NCBI GenBank assembly: GCA_013166775.1
Contig: JABLTJ010000022.1
Location: 1-56,439, forward strand
DNA length: 56,439 nt
Reading direction: 5' to 3'
From: Promethearchaeati archaeon
GTDB taxonomy: Archaea; Asgardarchaeota; Heimdallarchaeia; Heimdallarchaeales; Heimdallarchaeaceae
Both the position numbers and the translations under genes were made by a program. This document shows, piece by piece, positions 8,771 to 16,220 of the stretch (position 1 is the first letter of the stretch; each line of letters starts with the position of its first letter). The notes beneath the pieces were generated by a model. It had not been told where the DNA came from. It worked only from the letters and a program-made list of their open reading frames with translations, and did no database searches.

Positions 8771-9724
8771 CTAGCTTTTCTCCTTCCCTTTTTCCAATTT
8801 TTCAAGTTCTATGATTCTATCCCATATTAAATCCATCATTTTACCAATAGCTTTACTGCTAATGGAGGTTTCTATCATATGTAAACCTAATTTTGTAGCT
8901 TCCTCTACAAGGTATGTTTGTATGTTTCTAATCTCAGAAAATGCTGAAATATATCTATCAGCACTTCGTTTTACTATTGATGAACCTCTAGTTCGAATTC
9001 TTGTAGAATGTTCCTCTTCATCTTCTAAATAAAGAAGGAACATCAAAATATGTGGATTTTCAAGAATTGAGGATTGAAGAATATTTGGTGCTAAATGCAC
9101 ACCTTCTATAATCGTACTCTCTCTTGAGTATAGAGCTGATTGAATTGCTGCTTCTACACCTACTATTATGTGTCTACACTGTTCTTCGTAACCTACTATT
9201 GACTGCCTTAAAATCGGATTCAGTTTTGATTTGAGATATTTATAAGCATCATAGCTACTACAATGGAGTTCAGGTACTAATTTTGGAGAAATTGTCTGCC
9301 GAAGAATCTCTCTGATCATATCAGTTCCTATAATGCTTGATATTTCCAATCTTTGAGAAAGACGGGATGATATTGTGCTTTTTCCTATCCCTGGAACTCC
9401 TGCAAGTAGTATAACGATTGGTTTGTAATTTCCATCTCCTTCATGGATTTTGTATCTCTCTGCTAATCGTCTGTCAATCTTCTCGATTTCATCAGTTATT
9501 GTTTTAATGAGTTTTTTTCTTGGAACAGGGTCCTCTAATTCTCCCATTGTCTGTTCTACGTGATTTGCTATTTCCATTGCTGAATTTGCATTCATTCCAA
9601 TTGAATATAAAGAAGAAGAAAGTATTCCTTTAGAGAAATATTCAATTTTATCTTTTCCTCTTCGAATCTTCAAAAAACTACTGGAAACATTGCTATTCAT
9701 TAATAATAGGATAGGATAACTCAT
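8771..9724 (-). CDS. 2-phosphoglycerate kinase family protein (ATP-cone-like N-terminus + P-loop)
   Basis: YFSKGILSSSL N-terminus, LAGVPGIGKST, IGTDMIREILR, PELHCSSYDA, IIEGVHLAP. Confidence 0.85.
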   Translation of the reverse strand: MSYPILLLMNSNVSSSFLKIRRGKDKIEYFSKGILSSSLYSIGMNANSAMEIANHVEQTMGELEDPVPRKKLIKTITDEIEKIDRRLAERYKIHEGDGNYKPIVILLAGVPGIGKSTISSRLSQRLEISSIIGTDMIREILRQTISPKLVPELHCSSYDAYKYLKSKLNPILRQSIVGYEEQCRHIIVGVEAAIQSALYSRESTIIEGVHLAPNILQSSILENPHILMFLLYLEDEEEHSTRIRTRGSSIVKRSADRYISAFSEIRNIQTYLVEEATKLGLHMIETSISSKAIGKMMDLIWDRIIELEKLEKGKEKS

Positions 9725-9868: not shown

Positions 9869-10762
9869 ATGGGTACTGAACCTCAAATACTAATCAAAGG
9901 AAAACCTGATCAACTTTTTTCTAGAGGTTTACTAGCTAAGAAATTGGAACTAATAGGTTTTAGTCTCTCTGATGGTTACGAGTTTTCAATACAGGTTCAT
10001 AATGAATTGATAAAACTAAAAAAGAAAGTAATCACTAAAAAACAATTGGATGAAATTGTAAGTGATCTCTTGAATCAGAACTACACTAATAGACTTGCTG
10101 GACAATACAAAAAAATAGAAAATTGGCGAGAATCAGAAATTCCATTGTGGATTTTAATCTCTGGCGCAATAGGTGTTGGAAAAAGTACAATCTCAAGACA
10201 AATAGCAGGAGATTTAGGAATTCAACATGTAGTGGGGACAGGAATTATTCGAGATGTTCTTCAAAAAGTCCTTTCAGCTGATATAATGCCTGAACTTCAT
10301 TCTTCTTCCTATAATGCTTTTCAAACATTAAGACCGATATACAGTAGCAGATTTGAGGAAGTTATATTAGGTTTCGAAAATCATTCAAAATTTGTTAATA
10401 TAGGAGTTGAGGCTGTTTTATCAAGAGCTGAGACTGAATCTGTATCGATTGTGGTCGAGGGTGAGCATCTTCTGCCTGCTTTTTATGAAGAAACTGTGCT
10501 GAAAAAACCTAATGTGCTCTACATTACCGTTGCTACTCCAGATGAATCATTACATAAAGAAAATATAAGTGCTCAATATACAAAAGAAAAAGAAGAATTG
10601 CTTAACCATTTTAAGCAAATTAGGAAAATACATGACCATCTAGTTAACGAAGCCAAAATACGTAAGCTCAATTTAGTTTTATCTGAAAGAGGAAAGAAAC
10701 CCATAGGAAGAGTAAGACAATTGGTTGTGGAAAAAATAACTTCCTTAATTGCATATGAATAG
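9869..10762 (+). CDS. 2-phosphoglycerate kinase family protein, second paralog
   Basis: FSRGLLAKKL, ISGAIGVGKST, VGTGIIRDVL, PELHSSSYNA, VVEGEHLLP. Confidence 0.85.
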   Translation: MGTEPQILIKGKPDQLFSRGLLAKKLELIGFSLSDGYEFSIQVHNELIKLKKKVITKKQLDEIVSDLLNQNYTNRLAGQYKKIENWRESEIPLWILISGAIGVGKSTISRQIAGDLGIQHVVGTGIIRDVLQKVLSADIMPELHSSSYNAFQTLRPIYSSRFEEVILGFENHSKFVNIGVEAVLSRAETESVSIVVEGEHLLPAFYEETVLKKPNVLYITVATPDESLHKENISAQYTKEKEELLNHFKQIRKIHDHLVNEAKIRKLNLVLSERGKKPIGRVRQLVVEKITSLIAYE

Positions 10763-12184: not shown

Positions 12185-13192
12185 TTGTTTCATCAAATGA
12201 TCTCTCTAGGAATCGAATGCTCTGCAGATAAATTGGGTATTGGGATTGTAGATGTAAACGGAAATATTTTAGCAAACATTAGAAAAACCTACAAACCTCC
12301 ACATGGTAGTGGAATCCATCCAAGAGAAGCTTCAGAATTTCATTCAAACAATATGTCACAAGCAATTGATGATGCGTTCAAACAGGCATCAATTAAACCA
12401 AGAACGATTGATCTTGTTTCATTTACAAAAGGACCCGGTTTAGGACCCTGTTTACGTGTAGGCGCAGTAACTGCAAGAACTCTTTCACTTGCTCTAAACA
12501 AACCGTTAATGGCTGTAAACCATCCAATTGCCCATGTAGAAATTGGGAGGTTAGTTGGAGAGCTAAATGATCCAGTCGTACTTTATGTAAGTGGAGGAAA
12601 TACACAAATTATTGCTTTTTCAGAAGGAAGATATCGTGTTTTTGGAGAAACGATCGATATTCCTATTGGAAACTGTTTAGATGTTTTCGGACGTAATGTT
12701 GGATTAAGTGACCAACAAATGCCTATGGGAAGAGTGATTGAGCTTAAAGCAAAAGAAGGTAAAAATTATATCTCGTTTCCATACGTAATAAAAGGAATGG
12801 ATGTTTCCTTTTCAGGGATTTTAACCCATGCAACTCGATTATATGAAAGCAATAAATACTCAATTGAAGATTTATCTTACAGTTTGCAAGAAACTGTTTT
12901 TTCTATGCTAGTAGAAGTGACTGAAAGAGCTCTTGCTCATACAAAGAAATCTGAAGTTTTGGTAACTGGTGGTGTAGCATCAAACAAACGCTTAAAGGAG
13001 ATGTTAAACGAAATGACATCATCTCATGGAGCTATTTTTAGTGGTTTAGATGCTGATTTAGCTTTAGATAATGGAGCAATGATAGCTTGGTTGGGTTTGA
13101 TTATGAAAGGAGCAGGAGATAAGACAGATTTTGAAGATACTTTAGTTGATCAACACTTCCGTCCTGAAGAAGTCGAAGTAACCTGGAGATAA
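12185..13192 (+). CDS. kae1: KEOPS N6-threonylcarbamoyltransferase Kae1/TsaD
   Basis: LGIECSAD, GIHPREA, GPGLGPCL, VNHPIAHVEIG, YVSGGNTQ, FGETIDIPIGN, DNGAMIAW. Confidence 0.97.
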   Translation: MFHQMISLGIECSADKLGIGIVDVNGNILANIRKTYKPPHGSGIHPREASEFHSNNMSQAIDDAFKQASIKPRTIDLVSFTKGPGLGPCLRVGAVTARTLSLALNKPLMAVNHPIAHVEIGRLVGELNDPVVLYVSGGNTQIIAFSEGRYRVFGETIDIPIGNCLDVFGRNVGLSDQQMPMGRVIELKAKEGKNYISFPYVIKGMDVSFSGILTHATRLYESNKYSIEDLSYSLQETVFSMLVEVTERALAHTKKSEVLVTGGVASNKRLKEMLNEMTSSHGAIFSGLDADLALDNGAMIAWLGLIMKGAGDKTDFEDTLVDQHFRPEEVEVTWR

Positions 13193-13197
13193 TTAAC

Positions 13198-14517
13198 TTG
13201 AAGAATAGTTCTAAAGCTTTAATCTTTGATTTCAGCAAGAAGAATTTTTACAGTCTCACTCCCTTGATATCCACGATTGATAATGATGAAAATTTGAGCG
13301 ATCTAGATGTAATCTTAGCAGAGGAGCTAGATGTAAATGTCATCAAAAAAGAATTGAAGAAACATGATGAAATCATAATAGGAACTTCTTTTCGAACTGC
13401 TCAACTTCCTGAAATATATGAGAGAATGAAAATAATTTATTCGAATCTCAAAACTACTGATTTGGAGAAAATAACATTTATTGCAGGTGGAAGCCATCCT
13501 TCAGGGGATCCATTAAGCACATTGAAAATCGGTTTTGATGCAGCTTTTATCGGTGAAGCTGAATCCTCATTATCCTCTTTTCTGGATGCATTTTTACAAC
13601 AAGGGGCAATATTCTCTACACCAGGTATAGCATATTTAGACGATAAAACTGATGAACTAAAGATAAATCCAAGACCCCCTGCAATAGTTTTAGATGAGTA
13701 TCCATTTATTTCTGCAAAAAGAGGACTTTACCCCCCATTAGAGATTTCAAGAGGGTGTGCTTTTGGATGTACTTTCTGCCAAGTGCCAAATTTATTCCAT
13801 CGGCAAGTACGTCATCGTTCTCCAGATGTTATAATTGATGCCATAAAATGGATGCTCCCCAGAAGATTGAATGATATTCGATTCATAACTCCTAACTCCT
13901 TTGGTTATATGTCATCAAAGTCGAAATATGTTAATGAGGAAGCAATCCTATATCTTCTTGCTTCAATAAGATCAATGGATGGTATCAGAGATGTATTCTT
14001 TGGAACTTTTCCAGGGGAAGTAAGACCTGAAACCGTTAGTGAAGATTTTATGAATAATATCAAGCCATATCTATCAAATAGGAGAATCTCTGTTGGACTT
14101 CAATCTGGTAGTGATAAAGTGCTCAAAGAAATACGCAGAGGACATTCAGTTAAAGATGGTCTAGAGGCTATTAATATTCTCCTATCCACCGGTTTCACTC
14201 CTGTTGTTGATATTATAATAGGGATACCAGCTGCAAGTGAAGAAGATGAGCACTTAACAATGGAATTGATGAATAATTTCATTGAAGAAGATGTTGTATT
14301 CAGAGCTCATGCGTTTATGCCTTTACCAGGAACTGCTCTTGAGAAAACTGAATATTCTCCAGTCTCTTCAAAAATTAAAAAAACATTGGGGAGATTAAGC
14401 TCACAAGGAAAAATAGAAGGAAGTTGGTCTCAACAGGAGATATATGCACAAAATACGTGGAATACGATTAAAAGAATATATGATTTGCCCCCTATTCAGA
14501 GAGAAGATATTCATTAA
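13198..14517 (+). CDS. B12-binding domain / radical SAM protein (TIGR04013, MJ0865-like)
   Basis: AGGSHPSGDP and IGEAE in an N-terminal cobalamin-binding-type domain; EISRGCAFGCTFC (CxxxCxxC); RFITPNSFGY, GTFPGEVRPE, QSGSD, HAFMPLPGT. Confidence 0.88.
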   Translation: MKNSSKALIFDFSKKNFYSLTPLISTIDNDENLSDLDVILAEELDVNVIKKELKKHDEIIIGTSFRTAQLPEIYERMKIIYSNLKTTDLEKITFIAGGSHPSGDPLSTLKIGFDAAFIGEAESSLSSFLDAFLQQGAIFSTPGIAYLDDKTDELKINPRPPAIVLDEYPFISAKRGLYPPLEISRGCAFGCTFCQVPNLFHRQVRHRSPDVIIDAIKWMLPRRLNDIRFITPNSFGYMSSKSKYVNEEAILYLLASIRSMDGIRDVFFGTFPGEVRPETVSEDFMNNIKPYLSNRRISVGLQSGSDKVLKEIRRGHSVKDGLEAINILLSTGFTPVVDIIIGIPAASEEDEHLTMELMNNFIEEDVVFRAHAFMPLPGTALEKTEYSPVSSKIKKTLGRLSSQGKIEGSWSQQEIYAQNTWNTIKRIYDLPPIQREDIH

Positions 14518-15187
14518 CAAGTGCTTCTTCTTTTAAGTGTCTCCCACGAGCTTCGACTTTTACTGCTCTTTTCAGAACACTTTTCGCATTTTTCATAGTA
14601 ATGTAATATCCCTTTTGAAAAGACTCAAACAATTCTTTGCTGATTTCAGTGTGTGTGCTTATGAAGCATTTTTTTAGGAGTAAAATATCTACTGCTTTAT
14701 CTTCGACAGCACTAGAAAATTTTCCTAATCCAAAATCTATGAAAATAATTTTTTTCTTAGTATCACTCACTATGTTGCTTGTGGTCAAATCACCATGGAT
14801 TATATCATTTGAATGAAGTTTTCCTACTTGCTGTCCTATTTTATAAACTAATTCTTGTTTTTCTTTGATAGCAATCTGCTGTTTTAAGATTTTTTTAAAT
14901 AGTTCTCCCTCAATTTCCTCCATTATTATTGTTGTATTTGGAATATCAATTTCATATATGTAAGGTGTTCTCACACCTAATTTTTTAGCTTCAATTATTA
15001 AACGAGATTCAGAGATTGTTCTACTGTTTCTTAGTTCTTGATCAATTTGAGGTATCCTATATTTCTTAGGCTTTCTTATTTTCTTAATAACATTGAATCC
15101 TAACCAGTTGTCCTTTACAAGAATAGCTTCGGCTCCCCATTCTTCTGCTTTTGAATTGCTATCATCTGTTTTTATTCTCTTATGCAA
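14492..15187 (-). CDS. bud32: KEOPS kinase/ATPase Bud32
   Basis: GAEA, KIRKPKKYR..ID..LR..RT..E, IIHGDLTTSN, FIDFGLG, EDKAVD, C-terminal RGR. Overlaps the radical SAM 3' end by 26 bp. Confidence 0.95.
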   Translation of the reverse strand: MHKRIKTDDSNSKAEEWGAEAILVKDNWLGFNVIKKIRKPKKYRIPQIDQELRNSRTISESRLIIEAKKLGVRTPYIYEIDIPNTTIIMEEIEGELFKKILKQQIAIKEKQELVYKIGQQVGKLHSNDIIHGDLTTSNIVSDTKKKIIFIDFGLGKFSSAVEDKAVDILLLKKCFISTHTEISKELFESFQKGYYITMKNAKSVLKRAVKVEARGRHLKEEALVNEYLLSE

Positions 15188-16220
15188 TTTTCATCCTCTC
15201 TAGTTTTTTCAATGCGATTATAACTTGATCACCCTTTGGTTTGTCAAGAATTTCTCCATCTAGTTTAACAATTCCTTTTTCTTCAATTACTGAACCAACA
15301 ACATCAAACGGTATTTTTAGATTAAGAAGAAAAACTTCCAATTCTTTTATCTTTGCTTCATCGATACAAATAACTAAAACTCCAGAAGATATGATTCTGT
15401 AAGGATTGAAATCTAGCCATAAGGCAAGTTTTTGCAAAATAAGAGAAATTGAAGGTTTCTTATCCAATTCTATCCCGAATTTCCTATAGGCAACAATCTC
15501 TGTCAATGAACCATAAATTCCCCCTTCTGTTGCATCGTGAATAAGAGAAGGCTTGAATTTTTTATTAATCTCAAGAGCTAGTTCCGCAACACAAAGAAGT
15601 TTCCCCATCTTACTCCCCTGCTTAATCTCTTCTTCAGATAAAACATCTTGAATTATCTTTCCTGATTCAGCTAATATTATTCCAATCCCTTCAGCACCTA
15701 TTTGTCCTACTACAACTATTTTCTCTTTTATTTTCAACTTGTTTGGAACCGCAAAATCAGATGGTACAAATCCTAACATATGACCGGAAACTACACAAGT
15801 TCTAACTGCATCCGAGATTTCAGTATGCCCTCCTAAGACACTTATTTCCAAATCGTAACACTGTTCATGAATCTGTTTTTGAATATCCGAGATTCTATCA
15901 AAAGATGTTCCTGGAGGAACTATGATTGTTGATAAAAATCCATAAGGCTTAGCTCCTGAGCATGCAATATCATTAGCATTTACAATCACTGCATATTTAC
16001 CTGGTTTTGGAGTAGGGAATGTTATAGGATCTGATTTTTCTACTAAAAGCACTTCCGAATCTGAATTGTAAAATTCTTTTACTTTCATCTTTGCTTTTTC
16101 TAAATCTATAACAGCTGCATCTCCTCCAACCTCCCCTGATAAAACGATACCTTCATTTTCAAATCCTTTGAGTTGTAATATTTTTTCAAGTTGTGAAATT
16201 GGTAGCTTTCCTTCTTCCAT
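15180..16220 (-). CDS. AIR synthase (PurM-like) family protein
   Basis: GGDAAV, SDPIT, VNANDIACSGAKP, GGHTE, HDATEGGI. Overlaps the bud32 start by 8 bp. Confidence 0.85.
   Translation of the reverse strand: MEEGKLPISQLEKILQLKGFENEGIVLSGEVGGDAAVIDLEKAKMKVKEFYNSDSEVLLVEKSDPITFPTPKPGKYAVIVNANDIACSGAKPYGFLSTIIVPPGTSFDRISDIQKQIHEQCYDLEISVLGGHTEISDAVRTCVVSGHMLGFVPSDFAVPNKLKIKEKIVVVGQIGAEGIGIILAESGKIIQDVLSEEEIKQGSKMGKLLCVAELALEINKKFKPSLIHDATEGGIYGSLTEIVAYRKFGIELDKKPSISLILQKLALWLDFNPYRIISSGVLVICIDEAKIKELEVFLLNLKIPFDVVGSVIEEKGIVKLDGEILDKPKGDQVIIALKKLERMKIA

What the first reader, a model, noticed from the sequence alone, without database searches (positions are those of the whole stretch)
12185..15187. 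B12-dependent radical SAM gene between kae1 and bud32: candidate t6A hypermodification (hn6A-type) enzyme
Seen: the radical SAM ORF starts 5 bp after the kae1 stop on the same strand and overlaps the convergent bud32 by 26 bp. It has a cobalamin-binding-type N-domain and CxxxCxxC, but no TRAM domain or N-terminal Cys triad of MtaB/MiaB. Known: KEOPS makes t6A37; class B radical SAM enzymes methylate unactivated carbons; hn6A (hydroxynorvalyl-carbamoyladenosine) is t6A with one extra carbon on the side chain and occurs in some archaea; to my knowledge the TIGR04013 family has no assigned function. Inference: this enzyme could convert t6A (or Thr) to the hydroxynorvaline form.
Basis: partly seen in the sequence, partly recalled or inferred. 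Interest (0 to 1): 0.8.

Follow-up and report, generated by a model that had tools for sequence, protein, structure and literature searches.

The report
Candidate hn6A tRNA methylase beside Kae1
An Asgard (Heimdall-group) archaeon keeps an uncharacterised vitamin-B12-type radical SAM enzyme wedged between the two catalytic genes that make the universal tRNA base t6A. The same enzyme family is present in every known producer of the unexplained one-carbon-larger base hn6A that I could check, so it is a good, directly testable candidate for the missing hn6A enzyme.

Summary
kae1 (12185-13192, +) is followed after 5 nt by a 439-aa TIGR04013 B12-domain/radical SAM gene (13198-14517, +), whose 3' end overlaps convergent bud32 (14492-15187, -) by 26 bp.

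- **Linkage:** the block is kept in all five genera of this Heimdallarchaeial family while the flanks are rearranged. A distant lineage (38% identity) keeps kae1>rSAM. It is absent from 80 other diverse loci.
- **Other tRNA neighbours:** two further Asgard lineages place their single TIGR04013 gene next to other tRNA anticodon-loop genes, TrmJ and TYW1/Taw1.
- **Distribution:** the family passes its cut-off in 5 of 5 checked producers of hn6A or its derivatives (T. maritima, T. commune, M. jannaschii, M. acetivorans, M. kandleri) and in 0 of 11 other control genomes. All five are strict anaerobes, so this is confounded.
- **Fold:** closest to the MCR glutamine C-methylase MgmA/QCMT, then other cobalamin radical SAM methylases and MiaB/MtaB.
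- **Literature:** no held paper assigns the family a tested function.

Best reading (about 40%): it C-methylates the threonyl side chain of t6A37 on selected tRNAs to give hn6A. This is unproven, and Thermococcus was not checkable. Earlier agents of this scan reached the same idea on sister genomes.

The parts
12185..13192 (+). kae1, the KEOPS N6-threonylcarbamoyl transferase (probable start ATG 12197)
   Evidence: TIGR03722 451.9 bits (cut-off 375) and Pfam TsaD 258 bits. N-terminus set from the alignment with relatives.
13185..13189 (+). GGAGA Shine-Dalgarno-like motif inside the kae1 3' end, 9-13 nt before the radical SAM TTG start. It suggests translational coupling.
   Evidence: Read directly from the sequence. 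Function is inferred.
13198..14517 (+). TIGR04013-family B12-binding-domain/radical SAM gene (439 aa, TTG start), the candidate hn6A-forming C-methylase
   Evidence: TIGR04013 385.2 bits against a cut-off of 251. AF2 model with pLDDT 95. Best PDB fold match is MgmA/QCMT 9CCB.
13213..13587 (+). N-terminal Rossmann-type (cobalamin-binding-like) domain, residues about 6-130, with the conserved GG-H-P motif (G97, G98, H100)
   Evidence: Pfam PF02310 26.9 bits over residues 51-126. Alternating strand/helix pattern in the model. Family invariants. Whole-chain fold matches to cobalamin radical SAM enzymes.
13741..14259 (+). Radical SAM core (residues 182-354)
   Evidence: Pfam PF04055 79.4 bits.
13756..13779 (+). 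CxxxCxxC [4Fe-4S]/SAM cluster motif (C187, C191, C194)
   Evidence: Translation. Invariant in a 42-member alignment.
14492..15187 (-). bud32, the KEOPS kinase/ATPase, convergent with the radical SAM gene
   Evidence: TIGR03724 216 bits against a cut-off of 125.
14492..14517 (.). 26-bp overlap of the 3' ends of the radical SAM gene and bud32
   Evidence: ORF coordinates.
15180..16220 (-). PurM/AIRS-superfamily gene of unassigned subfamily. Its stop overlaps the bud32 start by 8 bp, and it is part of the conserved block.
   Evidence: Pfam AIRS and AIRS_C. Best NCBIfam hits are HypE at 76 bits and ThiL at 59 bits, both below cut-off. Kept next to bud32 in five genera.

Best explanation
The gene encodes a cobalamin-dependent (class B) radical SAM C-methyltransferase that turns t6A into hn6A. 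After Sua5 and KEOPS (Kae1/Bud32) have put the threonylcarbamoyl group on A37, the enzyme would act in two steps. It abstracts a hydrogen from the terminal methyl carbon of the threonyl side chain with a 5'-deoxyadenosyl radical. It then transfers a methyl group from methylcobalamin, converting the methyl into an ethyl group. That is the only difference between t6A and hn6A. It would act on selected ANN-decoding tRNAs, and the organism's e-MtaB could then add the 2-methylthio group.

Shown here: gene order, family membership, fold class, conservation of the linkage, and the distribution of the family.

Inferred: cobalamin use, methyl transfer, the substrate, and the stage at which methylation happens.
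For: **1. Conserved linkage to kae1.**
- The gene is translationally coupled to kae1 and interlocked with bud32.
- The kae1>rSAM><bud32 block is kept in 16 of 16 same-genus genomes that have the gene, and in all five genera of the GTDB family, down to 48% radical SAM identity.
- Genes on both sides of the block are rearranged.
- A 50%-GC Asgard contig keeps kae1>rSAM with a 28-nt gap at only 38% radical SAM identity.
- In other Asgard families bud32 directly follows kae1 or is fused to it. Here the radical SAM gene takes that slot.

**2. Other tRNA neighbours.** Genomes carry one TIGR04013 gene each. In two other Asgard lineages it sits co-directionally next to other tRNA anticodon-loop genes:
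- a TrmJ/YjtD-family methylase, 208 bits against a cut-off of 167;
- TYW1/Taw1, 372 bits against a cut-off of 318.

**3. Distribution.**
- Among the 14 named control genomes, only T. maritima, M. jannaschii and M. acetivorans pass the cut-off.
- T. commune DSM 2178 (AIH04638.1) and M. kandleri (AAM02002.1) also carry a member.
- T. maritima, T. commune, M. jannaschii and M. acetivorans are documented hn6A or ms2hn6A producers, and M. kandleri carries methyl-hn6A (PMC6313347, PMC10702137, PMC7430679).
- T. maritima and T. commune are described as the exceptional bacterial producers of hn6A.
- 113 of 121 sampled Methanosarcinaceae genomes have the gene.

**4. Chemistry.**
- The fold is closest to the cobalamin radical SAM C-methylase MgmA/QCMT.
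- It is also close to CysS and TokK, which extend methyl to ethyl, and to MiaB/MtaB, which act on A37.

**5. Substrate stage.**
- The origin of hydroxynorvaline is unknown (PMC7430679, PMC10702137).
- In the machine-read M. maripaludis table of PMC7668247, hn6A sits on tRNAs with anticodons GAU, C+AU, CAU and GUU, while t6A sits on the UUU-type and UCU tRNAs.
- M. acetivorans has ms2hn6A but no ms2t6A.
- A tRNA-specific pattern fits a tRNA-recognising enzyme better than a free amino-acid pool.

**6. Downstream step.** The same genome encodes e-MtaB, 366 bits against a cut-off of 315.
Against: - In 80 diverse GTDB loci there is no kae1, tsaD or bud32 within 8 kb, and neighbours are heterogeneous. 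The same holds for seven genomes of a sister Heimdall family. The KEOPS linkage is therefore confined to one family plus one lineage.
- My rough, untested estimate is that the enrichment of RNA-related neighbours overall is only about two- to three-fold.
- All five positive hn6A producers are strict anaerobes, and most negatives are aerobes. An anaerobe-specific family could give the same pattern.
- The family also occurs in the aerobe Aeropyrum pernix and in many bacteria whose tRNA has not been analysed.
- The t6A enzymes of E. coli and T. maritima accept free hydroxynorvaline in vitro (PMC7430679). This supports the published view that hn6A is made from the free amino acid.
- The B12-binding Pfam score of this protein is below threshold, and cobalamin binding is untested.
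- No RNA-binding domain (TRAM, PUA, THUMP) is present.
Confidence: 0.4

Rival explanations
1. The enzyme makes hn6A one step earlier. It C-methylates free L-threonine to 3-hydroxynorvaline, or methylates threonylcarbamoyl-AMP. The ordinary Sua5/KEOPS machinery then installs the product.
For: - Bacterial TsaC/TsaD and P. abyssi Sua5 accept hydroxynorvaline (PMC7430679; PMC3561968).
- The same phyletic match and kae1 linkage as for the main reading apply.
- No RNA-binding domain is detected.
Against: - hn6A and t6A sit on different tRNAs in one cell. A shared amino-acid pool does not explain that.
- From my general knowledge, hydroxynorvaline is a threonine analogue, so a free pool would risk mischarging.
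- T. maritima TsaC2 prefers threonine about four-fold.
- No amino-acid biosynthesis genes recur next to the family.
- The TrmJ and TYW1 neighbours point to tRNA.
Confidence: 0.12
2. It is a C-methylase (or other radical enzyme) for a different macromolecule of the translation apparatus. The target could be another tRNA or rRNA position, or a protein residue, as for its closest characterised relative MgmA/QCMT. The match with hn6A producers would then be coincidental.
For: - The closest sequence and fold relative methylates a protein glutamine.
- The neighbours TrmJ and TYW1 act on positions or bases other than t6A.
- The family is single-copy, scattered and housekeeping-like.
Against: - It does not explain the specific retention directly behind kae1 across a family and a distant lineage.
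- To my knowledge, no other orphan C-methylation has this distribution.
- 5 of 5 producers carry the family.
Confidence: 0.2
3. It works in small-molecule or lipid metabolism, and the tRNA-gene neighbours are chance. Examples are the BzaE-like step of anaerobic benzimidazole synthesis proposed for MJ1487 in MjCyc, or a lipid-tail modification like Grs, Gmm or Cgm.
For: - MjCyc assigns MJ1487 to 5,6-dimethylbenzimidazole synthesis from 29% identity to BzaE (PMC11742838).
- Many archaeal B12 radical SAM enzymes modify lipids (bioRxiv 10.1101/2025.10.20.683597).
- From my general knowledge, several bacterial hosts (Thermotoga, Thermodesulfobacterium, Acidobacteriota, Myxococcota) make unusual lipids.
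Against: - The BzaD model scores 26.9 bits against a cut-off of 450, and the lipid B12 radical SAM model TIGR04072 scores 50 against 360.
- The 25 families most common among 141 adjacent genes include no cobalamin, bza or recurrent lipid genes.
- The lipid enzymes are longer than 495 aa and are present in S. acidocaldarius, which lacks TIGR04013.
Confidence: 0.1

Closest known systems
MgmA / QCMT, the methyl-coenzyme M reductase glutamine C-methyltransferase (NCBIfam TIGR04014; PDB 9CCB)
   Same: Closest characterised relative by sequence (116 bits; PDB phmmer E 1e-21) and by fold (Foldseek E 3e-22, TM 0.70/0.74). It has the same Rossmann domain plus radical SAM barrel layout, and it methylates an unactivated sp3 carbon using cobalamin.
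   Different: The score is far below the TIGR04014 cut-off of 360. QCMT acts on a protein and, from my general knowledge, is confined to methanogens. TIGR04013 occurs in non-methanogens and in bacteria, which have no MCR.
TokK/ThnK and CysS, cobalamin radical SAM enzymes that build ethyl and larger groups by methylating a methyl carbon
   Same: They carry out the chemistry proposed here, methyl to ethyl. They are whole-chain fold matches with TM about 0.63-0.65 normalised by the query.
   Different: They are longer proteins (620-660 aa) with small-molecule or carrier-bound substrates in antibiotic pathways. Sequence identity is only 16-17%.
MtaB / e-MtaB and MiaB, radical SAM methylthiotransferases acting on (t6A/i6A)37
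   Same: They are the next-best NCBIfam matches after QCMT (TIGR00089, 75 bits). The overall fold matches MiaB-RNA complexes and MtaB, TM about 0.62. MtaB uses t6A- or hn6A-tRNA as substrate (PMC10702137).
   Different: TIGR04013 has no N-terminal three-cysteine auxiliary cluster site and no TRAM domain, and all MTTase models score below cut-off.
Known t6A-tailoring enzymes TrmO (m6t6A) and TcdA (ct6A)
   Same: The proposed role is the same: a secondary decoration of t6A37 on a subset of ANN-decoding tRNAs (PMC13602947).
   Different: The folds and chemistry are unrelated. TrmO does SAM-dependent N-methylation and TcdA does ATP-dependent cyclisation. Neither forms a C-C bond.

Membership tests
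NCBIfam TIGR04013 (B12_SAM_MJ_1487) | Whole-protein score above the curated cut-off (251 bits) | tested here: met
   385.2 bits over model positions 2-382.
NCBIfam TIGR04013 (B12_SAM_MJ_1487) | Two-domain architecture: B12-binding-type Rossmann domain plus radical SAM core with a single CxxxCxxC | tested here: met
   Pfam hits. C187/C191/C194 are invariant with no other invariant Cys. AF2 model.
NCBIfam TIGR04013 (B12_SAM_MJ_1487) | One member per genome | tested here: met
   Single matches in nearly all of 185 Asgard, 113 Thermoprotei and 113 Methanosarcinaceae genomes with a match. The second copy in this bin lies on a 3-kb contig that is 95% identical to another Heimdall family, so it is probably mis-binned.
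Class B (cobalamin-dependent) radical SAM methylases | N-terminal cobalamin-binding Rossmann domain | tested here: inconclusive
   PF02310 scores 26.9 bits, below its 32.1 gathering score for this protein, though relatives carry the precomputed PF02310 annotation. The fold matches MgmA, OxsB, CysS, TokK and TsrM. Actual cobalamin binding cannot be shown with these tools.
Class B (cobalamin-dependent) radical SAM methylases | Methyl transfer from methylcobalamin to a substrate radical | not testable with these tools
   Needs an enzyme assay. Some class B members (OxsB, BchE, and the desaturase Ted) are not methylases.
MiaB/MtaB/RimO methylthiotransferases | N-terminal UPF0004 domain with three conserved Cys for the auxiliary cluster, and a C-terminal TRAM domain | tested here: not met
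   No conserved N-terminal Cys. No TRAM hit. TIGR00089 scores 75 bits against a cut-off of 251, and MtaB scores 62 against 357.
QCMT/MgmA (TIGR04014) | Score above the 360-bit cut-off | tested here: not met
   116.3 bits.
BzaD/BzaE benzimidazole methylases | Score above the family cut-off, and a bza/cob gene context | tested here: not met
   TIGR04385 scores 26.9 bits against 450. No cob or bza family is among the 25 families listed for 141 adjacent genes.
Archaeal lipid B12 radical SAM enzymes (Grs/Gmm/Cgm; TIGR04072) | Family score, and length above about 495 aa with a membrane-binding C-terminus | tested here: not met
   TIGR04072 scores 50 bits against 360. This protein is 439 aa. S. acidocaldarius, which has Grs and Cgm, lacks TIGR04013.
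hn6A synthase (proposed function, no family defined yet) | Present in every organism with hn6A or ms2hn6A | tested here: inconclusive
   Present in 5 of 5 checked: T. maritima, T. commune, M. jannaschii, M. acetivorans, M. kandleri. T. kodakarensis, M. maripaludis, M. burtonii and S. hydrogenophila could not be searched by name.

The most novel reading that the evidence does not exclude
TIGR04013 would be the first cobalamin-dependent radical SAM enzyme known to act on RNA. It would be a tRNA-specific C-methylase that extends the threonyl side chain of t6A37 to give hn6A. This would settle the origin of a nucleoside whose structure was published in 1992. It would also predict hn6A in most Asgard archaea, Bathyarchaeia, many Thermoprotei and scattered anaerobic bacteria.
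Probability: 0.4. Interest if true: 0.8.

Novelty: new variant of a known kind. Interest (0 to 1): 0.7.

Why it matters
The papers I read still call the source of the extra carbon of hn6A/ms2hn6A unknown, and the nucleoside's structure dates from 1992 (PMC7430679, PMC10702137). The prevailing idea needs a free pool of a threonine analogue whose source is unknown.

A named, single-copy candidate gene makes the question testable. The gene is present in genetically tractable producers (M. acetivorans and the Methanococcales) and in well-studied T. maritima. One knockout plus nucleoside LC-MS would decide it.

If the reading is right:
- cobalamin radical SAM chemistry would extend to RNA;
- one large orphan family (at least 329 clusters at 50% identity) would gain an annotation;
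- hn6A would be expected to be common in Asgard archaea, the closest known relatives of eukaryotes.

Tried and rejected
- **Kae1-rSAM complex prediction:** no verdict (score 0.01). It counts neither for nor against binding.
- **Search for long fused forms:** nothing at E <= 1e-40, which is only weak evidence. Shorter N-terminal fusions found earlier carry only TPR or HD domains and are uninformative.
- **Neighbourhood of 80 diverse loci:**
  - The only recurrent neighbours are lineage-specific synteny, for example an HhH-GPD glycosylase in Lokiarchaeia.
  - No t6A genes are present.
- **AIRS-like gene as a family-wide partner:**
  - Rejected. No homologue lies near other loci (no hits).
  - The M. 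kandleri AIRS gene nearby is methanogenesis marker 2.
- **Second TIGR04013 copy on contig C104 as a true paralogue:** rejected as probable mis-binning.
- **Thermococcus, Methanococcus, Methanococcoides and Stetteria by name:**
  - There was no route to those genomes.
  - The M. kandleri-seeded protein search was saturated by Methanosarcinales.
  - M. kandleri loci from the look-up of encoding contigs gave no genome handle.
- **Primary hn6A papers (Reddy 1992, McCloskey 2001, Noon 2003, Yu 2019):** not held, so I relied on reviews and later papers.
- **PNAS 2024 GDGT paper:** no supplement is held.
Full report
**Observation**

The window is a 33%-GC stretch of a Heimdall-group Asgard metagenome bin. 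Taxon names come from the database hits, and the bin is 3.85 Mb in 115 contigs.
- kae1 lies at 12185-13192 (+). TIGR03722 scores 452 bits, and the likely start is ATG 12197.
- A 439-aa gene lies at 13198-14517 (+).
- Convergent bud32 lies at 14492-15187 (-). TIGR03724 scores 216 bits.
- The kae1 stop and the TTG start are separated by 5 nt, with GGAGA 9-13 nt upstream.
- The two 3' ends overlap by 26 bp.

The middle protein has these features:
- It matches NCBIfam TIGR04013 at 385 bits (cut-off 251).
- It has Pfam Radical_SAM, a sub-threshold B12-binding hit and one CxxxCxxC (C187/191/194).
- It has no TRAM domain and no second conserved cysteine set.

An AlphaFold2 model is confident (pLDDT 95). 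Its best solved neighbours, in order, are:
- the cobalamin radical SAM glutamine C-methylase MgmA/QCMT (9CCB, TM 0.70/0.74);
- OxsB, MtaB, CysS, MiaB-RNA complexes, TokK and TsrM.

**How far the KEOPS linkage goes**
- The arrangement kae1>rSAM><bud32 is present in 16 of 16 same-genus genomes that carry the gene.
- It is present in all five genera of the GTDB family, where radical SAM identity to the window falls to 48-54%.
- Comparing 20-kb regions shows a constant block: a small upstream gene, kae1, rSAM, bud32 and a PurM/AIRS-like gene. Both flanks differ between genera. The block is therefore held together beyond background synteny.
- The nearest outgroup protein (38% identity) lies on a 50%-GC Asgard contig. 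There it sits 28 nt downstream of kae1, with bud32 4.6 kb away and a different downstream gene.
- In other Asgard families bud32 directly follows kae1 or is fused to it. In two Heimdall families the two genes are on separate contigs.
- The linkage is absent elsewhere:
  - seven genomes of a sister family show no kae1 or bud32 near the gene;
  - 80 diverse loci from the species-genome collection show no kae1, tsaD or bud32 homologue within 8 kb, and their neighbours are heterogeneous.

**Other tRNA links**

Genomes almost always carry exactly one family member.
- In another Heimdall family the gene lies directly downstream of a TrmJ/YjtD-family RNA 2'-O-methylase on the same strand (208 bits, cut-off 167).
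- The second copy in this bin, on 3-kb contig C104, belongs to that type. It is 95% identical to a genome of that family, so it is probably mis-binned.
- In a Thorarchaeota-like clade (L114, L108) TYW1/Taw1 follows the gene within about 100 bp on the same strand (372 bits, cut-off 318).
- Kae1 acts at position 37 of the tRNA anticodon loop; from my general knowledge TYW1 also acts at position 37 and TrmJ at position 32.
- My rough, untested estimate is that the overall enrichment of RNA-related neighbours is only about two- to three-fold. This is supportive rather than decisive.

**Distribution against hn6A**
- The search tool tests each family in 14 named genomes. TIGR04013 passes its cut-off only in Thermotoga maritima, Methanocaldococcus jannaschii and Methanosarcina acetivorans.
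- Exact look-ups add Thermodesulfobacterium commune DSM 2178 and Methanopyrus kandleri.
- Documented status of these five:
  - PMC6313347 says T. maritima and T. commune are the exceptional bacteria with hn6A, and that M. kandleri has methyl-hn6A.
  - PMC10702137 reports hn6A and ms2hn6A in M. acetivorans and M. jannaschii.
- 113 of 121 sampled Methanosarcinaceae genomes have the gene. By my reading of GTDB taxonomy that family includes Methanococcoides, which the review lists among hn6A-bearing psychrophiles.
- E. coli, B. subtilis, H. volcanii, S. acidocaldarius and seven other controls lack it.
- Caveats:
  - all positives are strict anaerobes;
  - absence of hn6A is mostly 'not reported';
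  - the family also occurs in Aeropyrum pernix and in many unstudied bacteria;
  - T. kodakarensis, for which ms2hn6A is reported (PMC11323500), could not be searched.

**Mechanism**
- hn6A differs from t6A by one carbon at the end of the side chain.
- Class B radical SAM enzymes such as TokK and CysS perform exactly this methyl-to-ethyl extension.
- The literature holds that the t6A machinery can install hydroxynorvaline, but that its metabolic origin is unknown (PMC7430679, PMC10702137, PMC3561968).
- I favour methylation after transfer to tRNA, for these reasons:
  - In the machine-read M. maripaludis table of PMC7668247, hn6A sits on tRNAs with anticodons GAU, C+AU, CAU and GUU.
  - In the same table, t6A sits on the UUU-type and UCU tRNAs.
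  - M. acetivorans has ms2hn6A but no ms2t6A.
  - The other conserved neighbours are tRNA enzymes.
- The genome also encodes e-MtaB.
- Methylation of free threonine or of TC-AMP remains possible.

**Rivals and literature**
- The MjCyc assignment of MJ1487 as BzaE-like rests on 29% identity. It is not supported by model scores or by gene context.
- The lipid-modifying B12 radical SAM enzymes form a separate, longer family.
- A different macromolecular target cannot be excluded.
- No held paper links TIGR04013 or MJ1487 to hn6A.
- Earlier agents of this scan reached the same hypothesis on sister genomes.

**Verdict**
- The gene is a new variant of a known enzyme class, with a cheap decisive experiment available.

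Noticed in passing
window 15180-16220 (-): A PurM/AIRS-superfamily gene of no assigned subfamily (best hits HypE 76 bits and ThiL 59 bits, both below cut-off). It is translationally coupled upstream of bud32 and travels with the KEOPS block in five genera. From my general knowledge, HypE is carbamoylated by HypF, which contains YrdC- and Kae1-like domains, so a KEOPS-linked HypE-like protein may deserve its own look.
   Followed up: partly
own genome contig C104 (locus L001 226-2986); L071, L094, L152-L154: A second TIGR04013 gene in the bin lies on a 3-kb contig behind a TrmJ-family gene. It is 95% identical to a genome of another Heimdall family, so it is probably a mis-binned contig. The TrmJ>rSAM pairing is conserved in that family, sometimes with a 283-aa orphan gene in between.
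   Followed up: yes
L114 8001-10278; L108 1101-2810: In a Thorarchaeota-like clade the TIGR04013 gene is followed on the same strand by TYW1/Taw1, the 4-demethylwyosine synthase.
   Followed up: partly
L161 6721-9209 (Methanopyrus kandleri AV19, AE009439.1): The M. kandleri TIGR04013 gene overlaps by 4 bp an upstream 427-aa nucleotidyltransferase with a faint TmcAL-family (HIGH_NTase1) signal. M. kandleri tRNA is rich in ac6A, whose enzyme is to my knowledge unassigned, so this neighbour could be worth testing.
   Followed up: partly
protein P0267 (KAH3761575.1): A TIGR04013-family protein is recorded for the anaerobic amoeba Pelomyxa schiedti. It is either a gene transferred into a eukaryote or contamination of the assembly.
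   Followed up: no
window 8771-9724 (-) and 9869-10762 (+): Two divergently oriented P-loop (AAA_18) genes. The plus-strand one matches the 2-phosphoglycerate kinase model (228 bits, below its 343 cut-off). The minus-strand one has only weak P-loop Pfam hits and looks distantly related to its neighbour from shared weak matches in relatives.
   Followed up: no
L169 (Aeropyrum pernix K1, BAA81120.1): The strictly aerobic hyperthermophile A. pernix carries a TIGR04013 member. A nucleoside analysis of its tRNA would be a lifestyle-independent test of the hn6A link.
   Followed up: no
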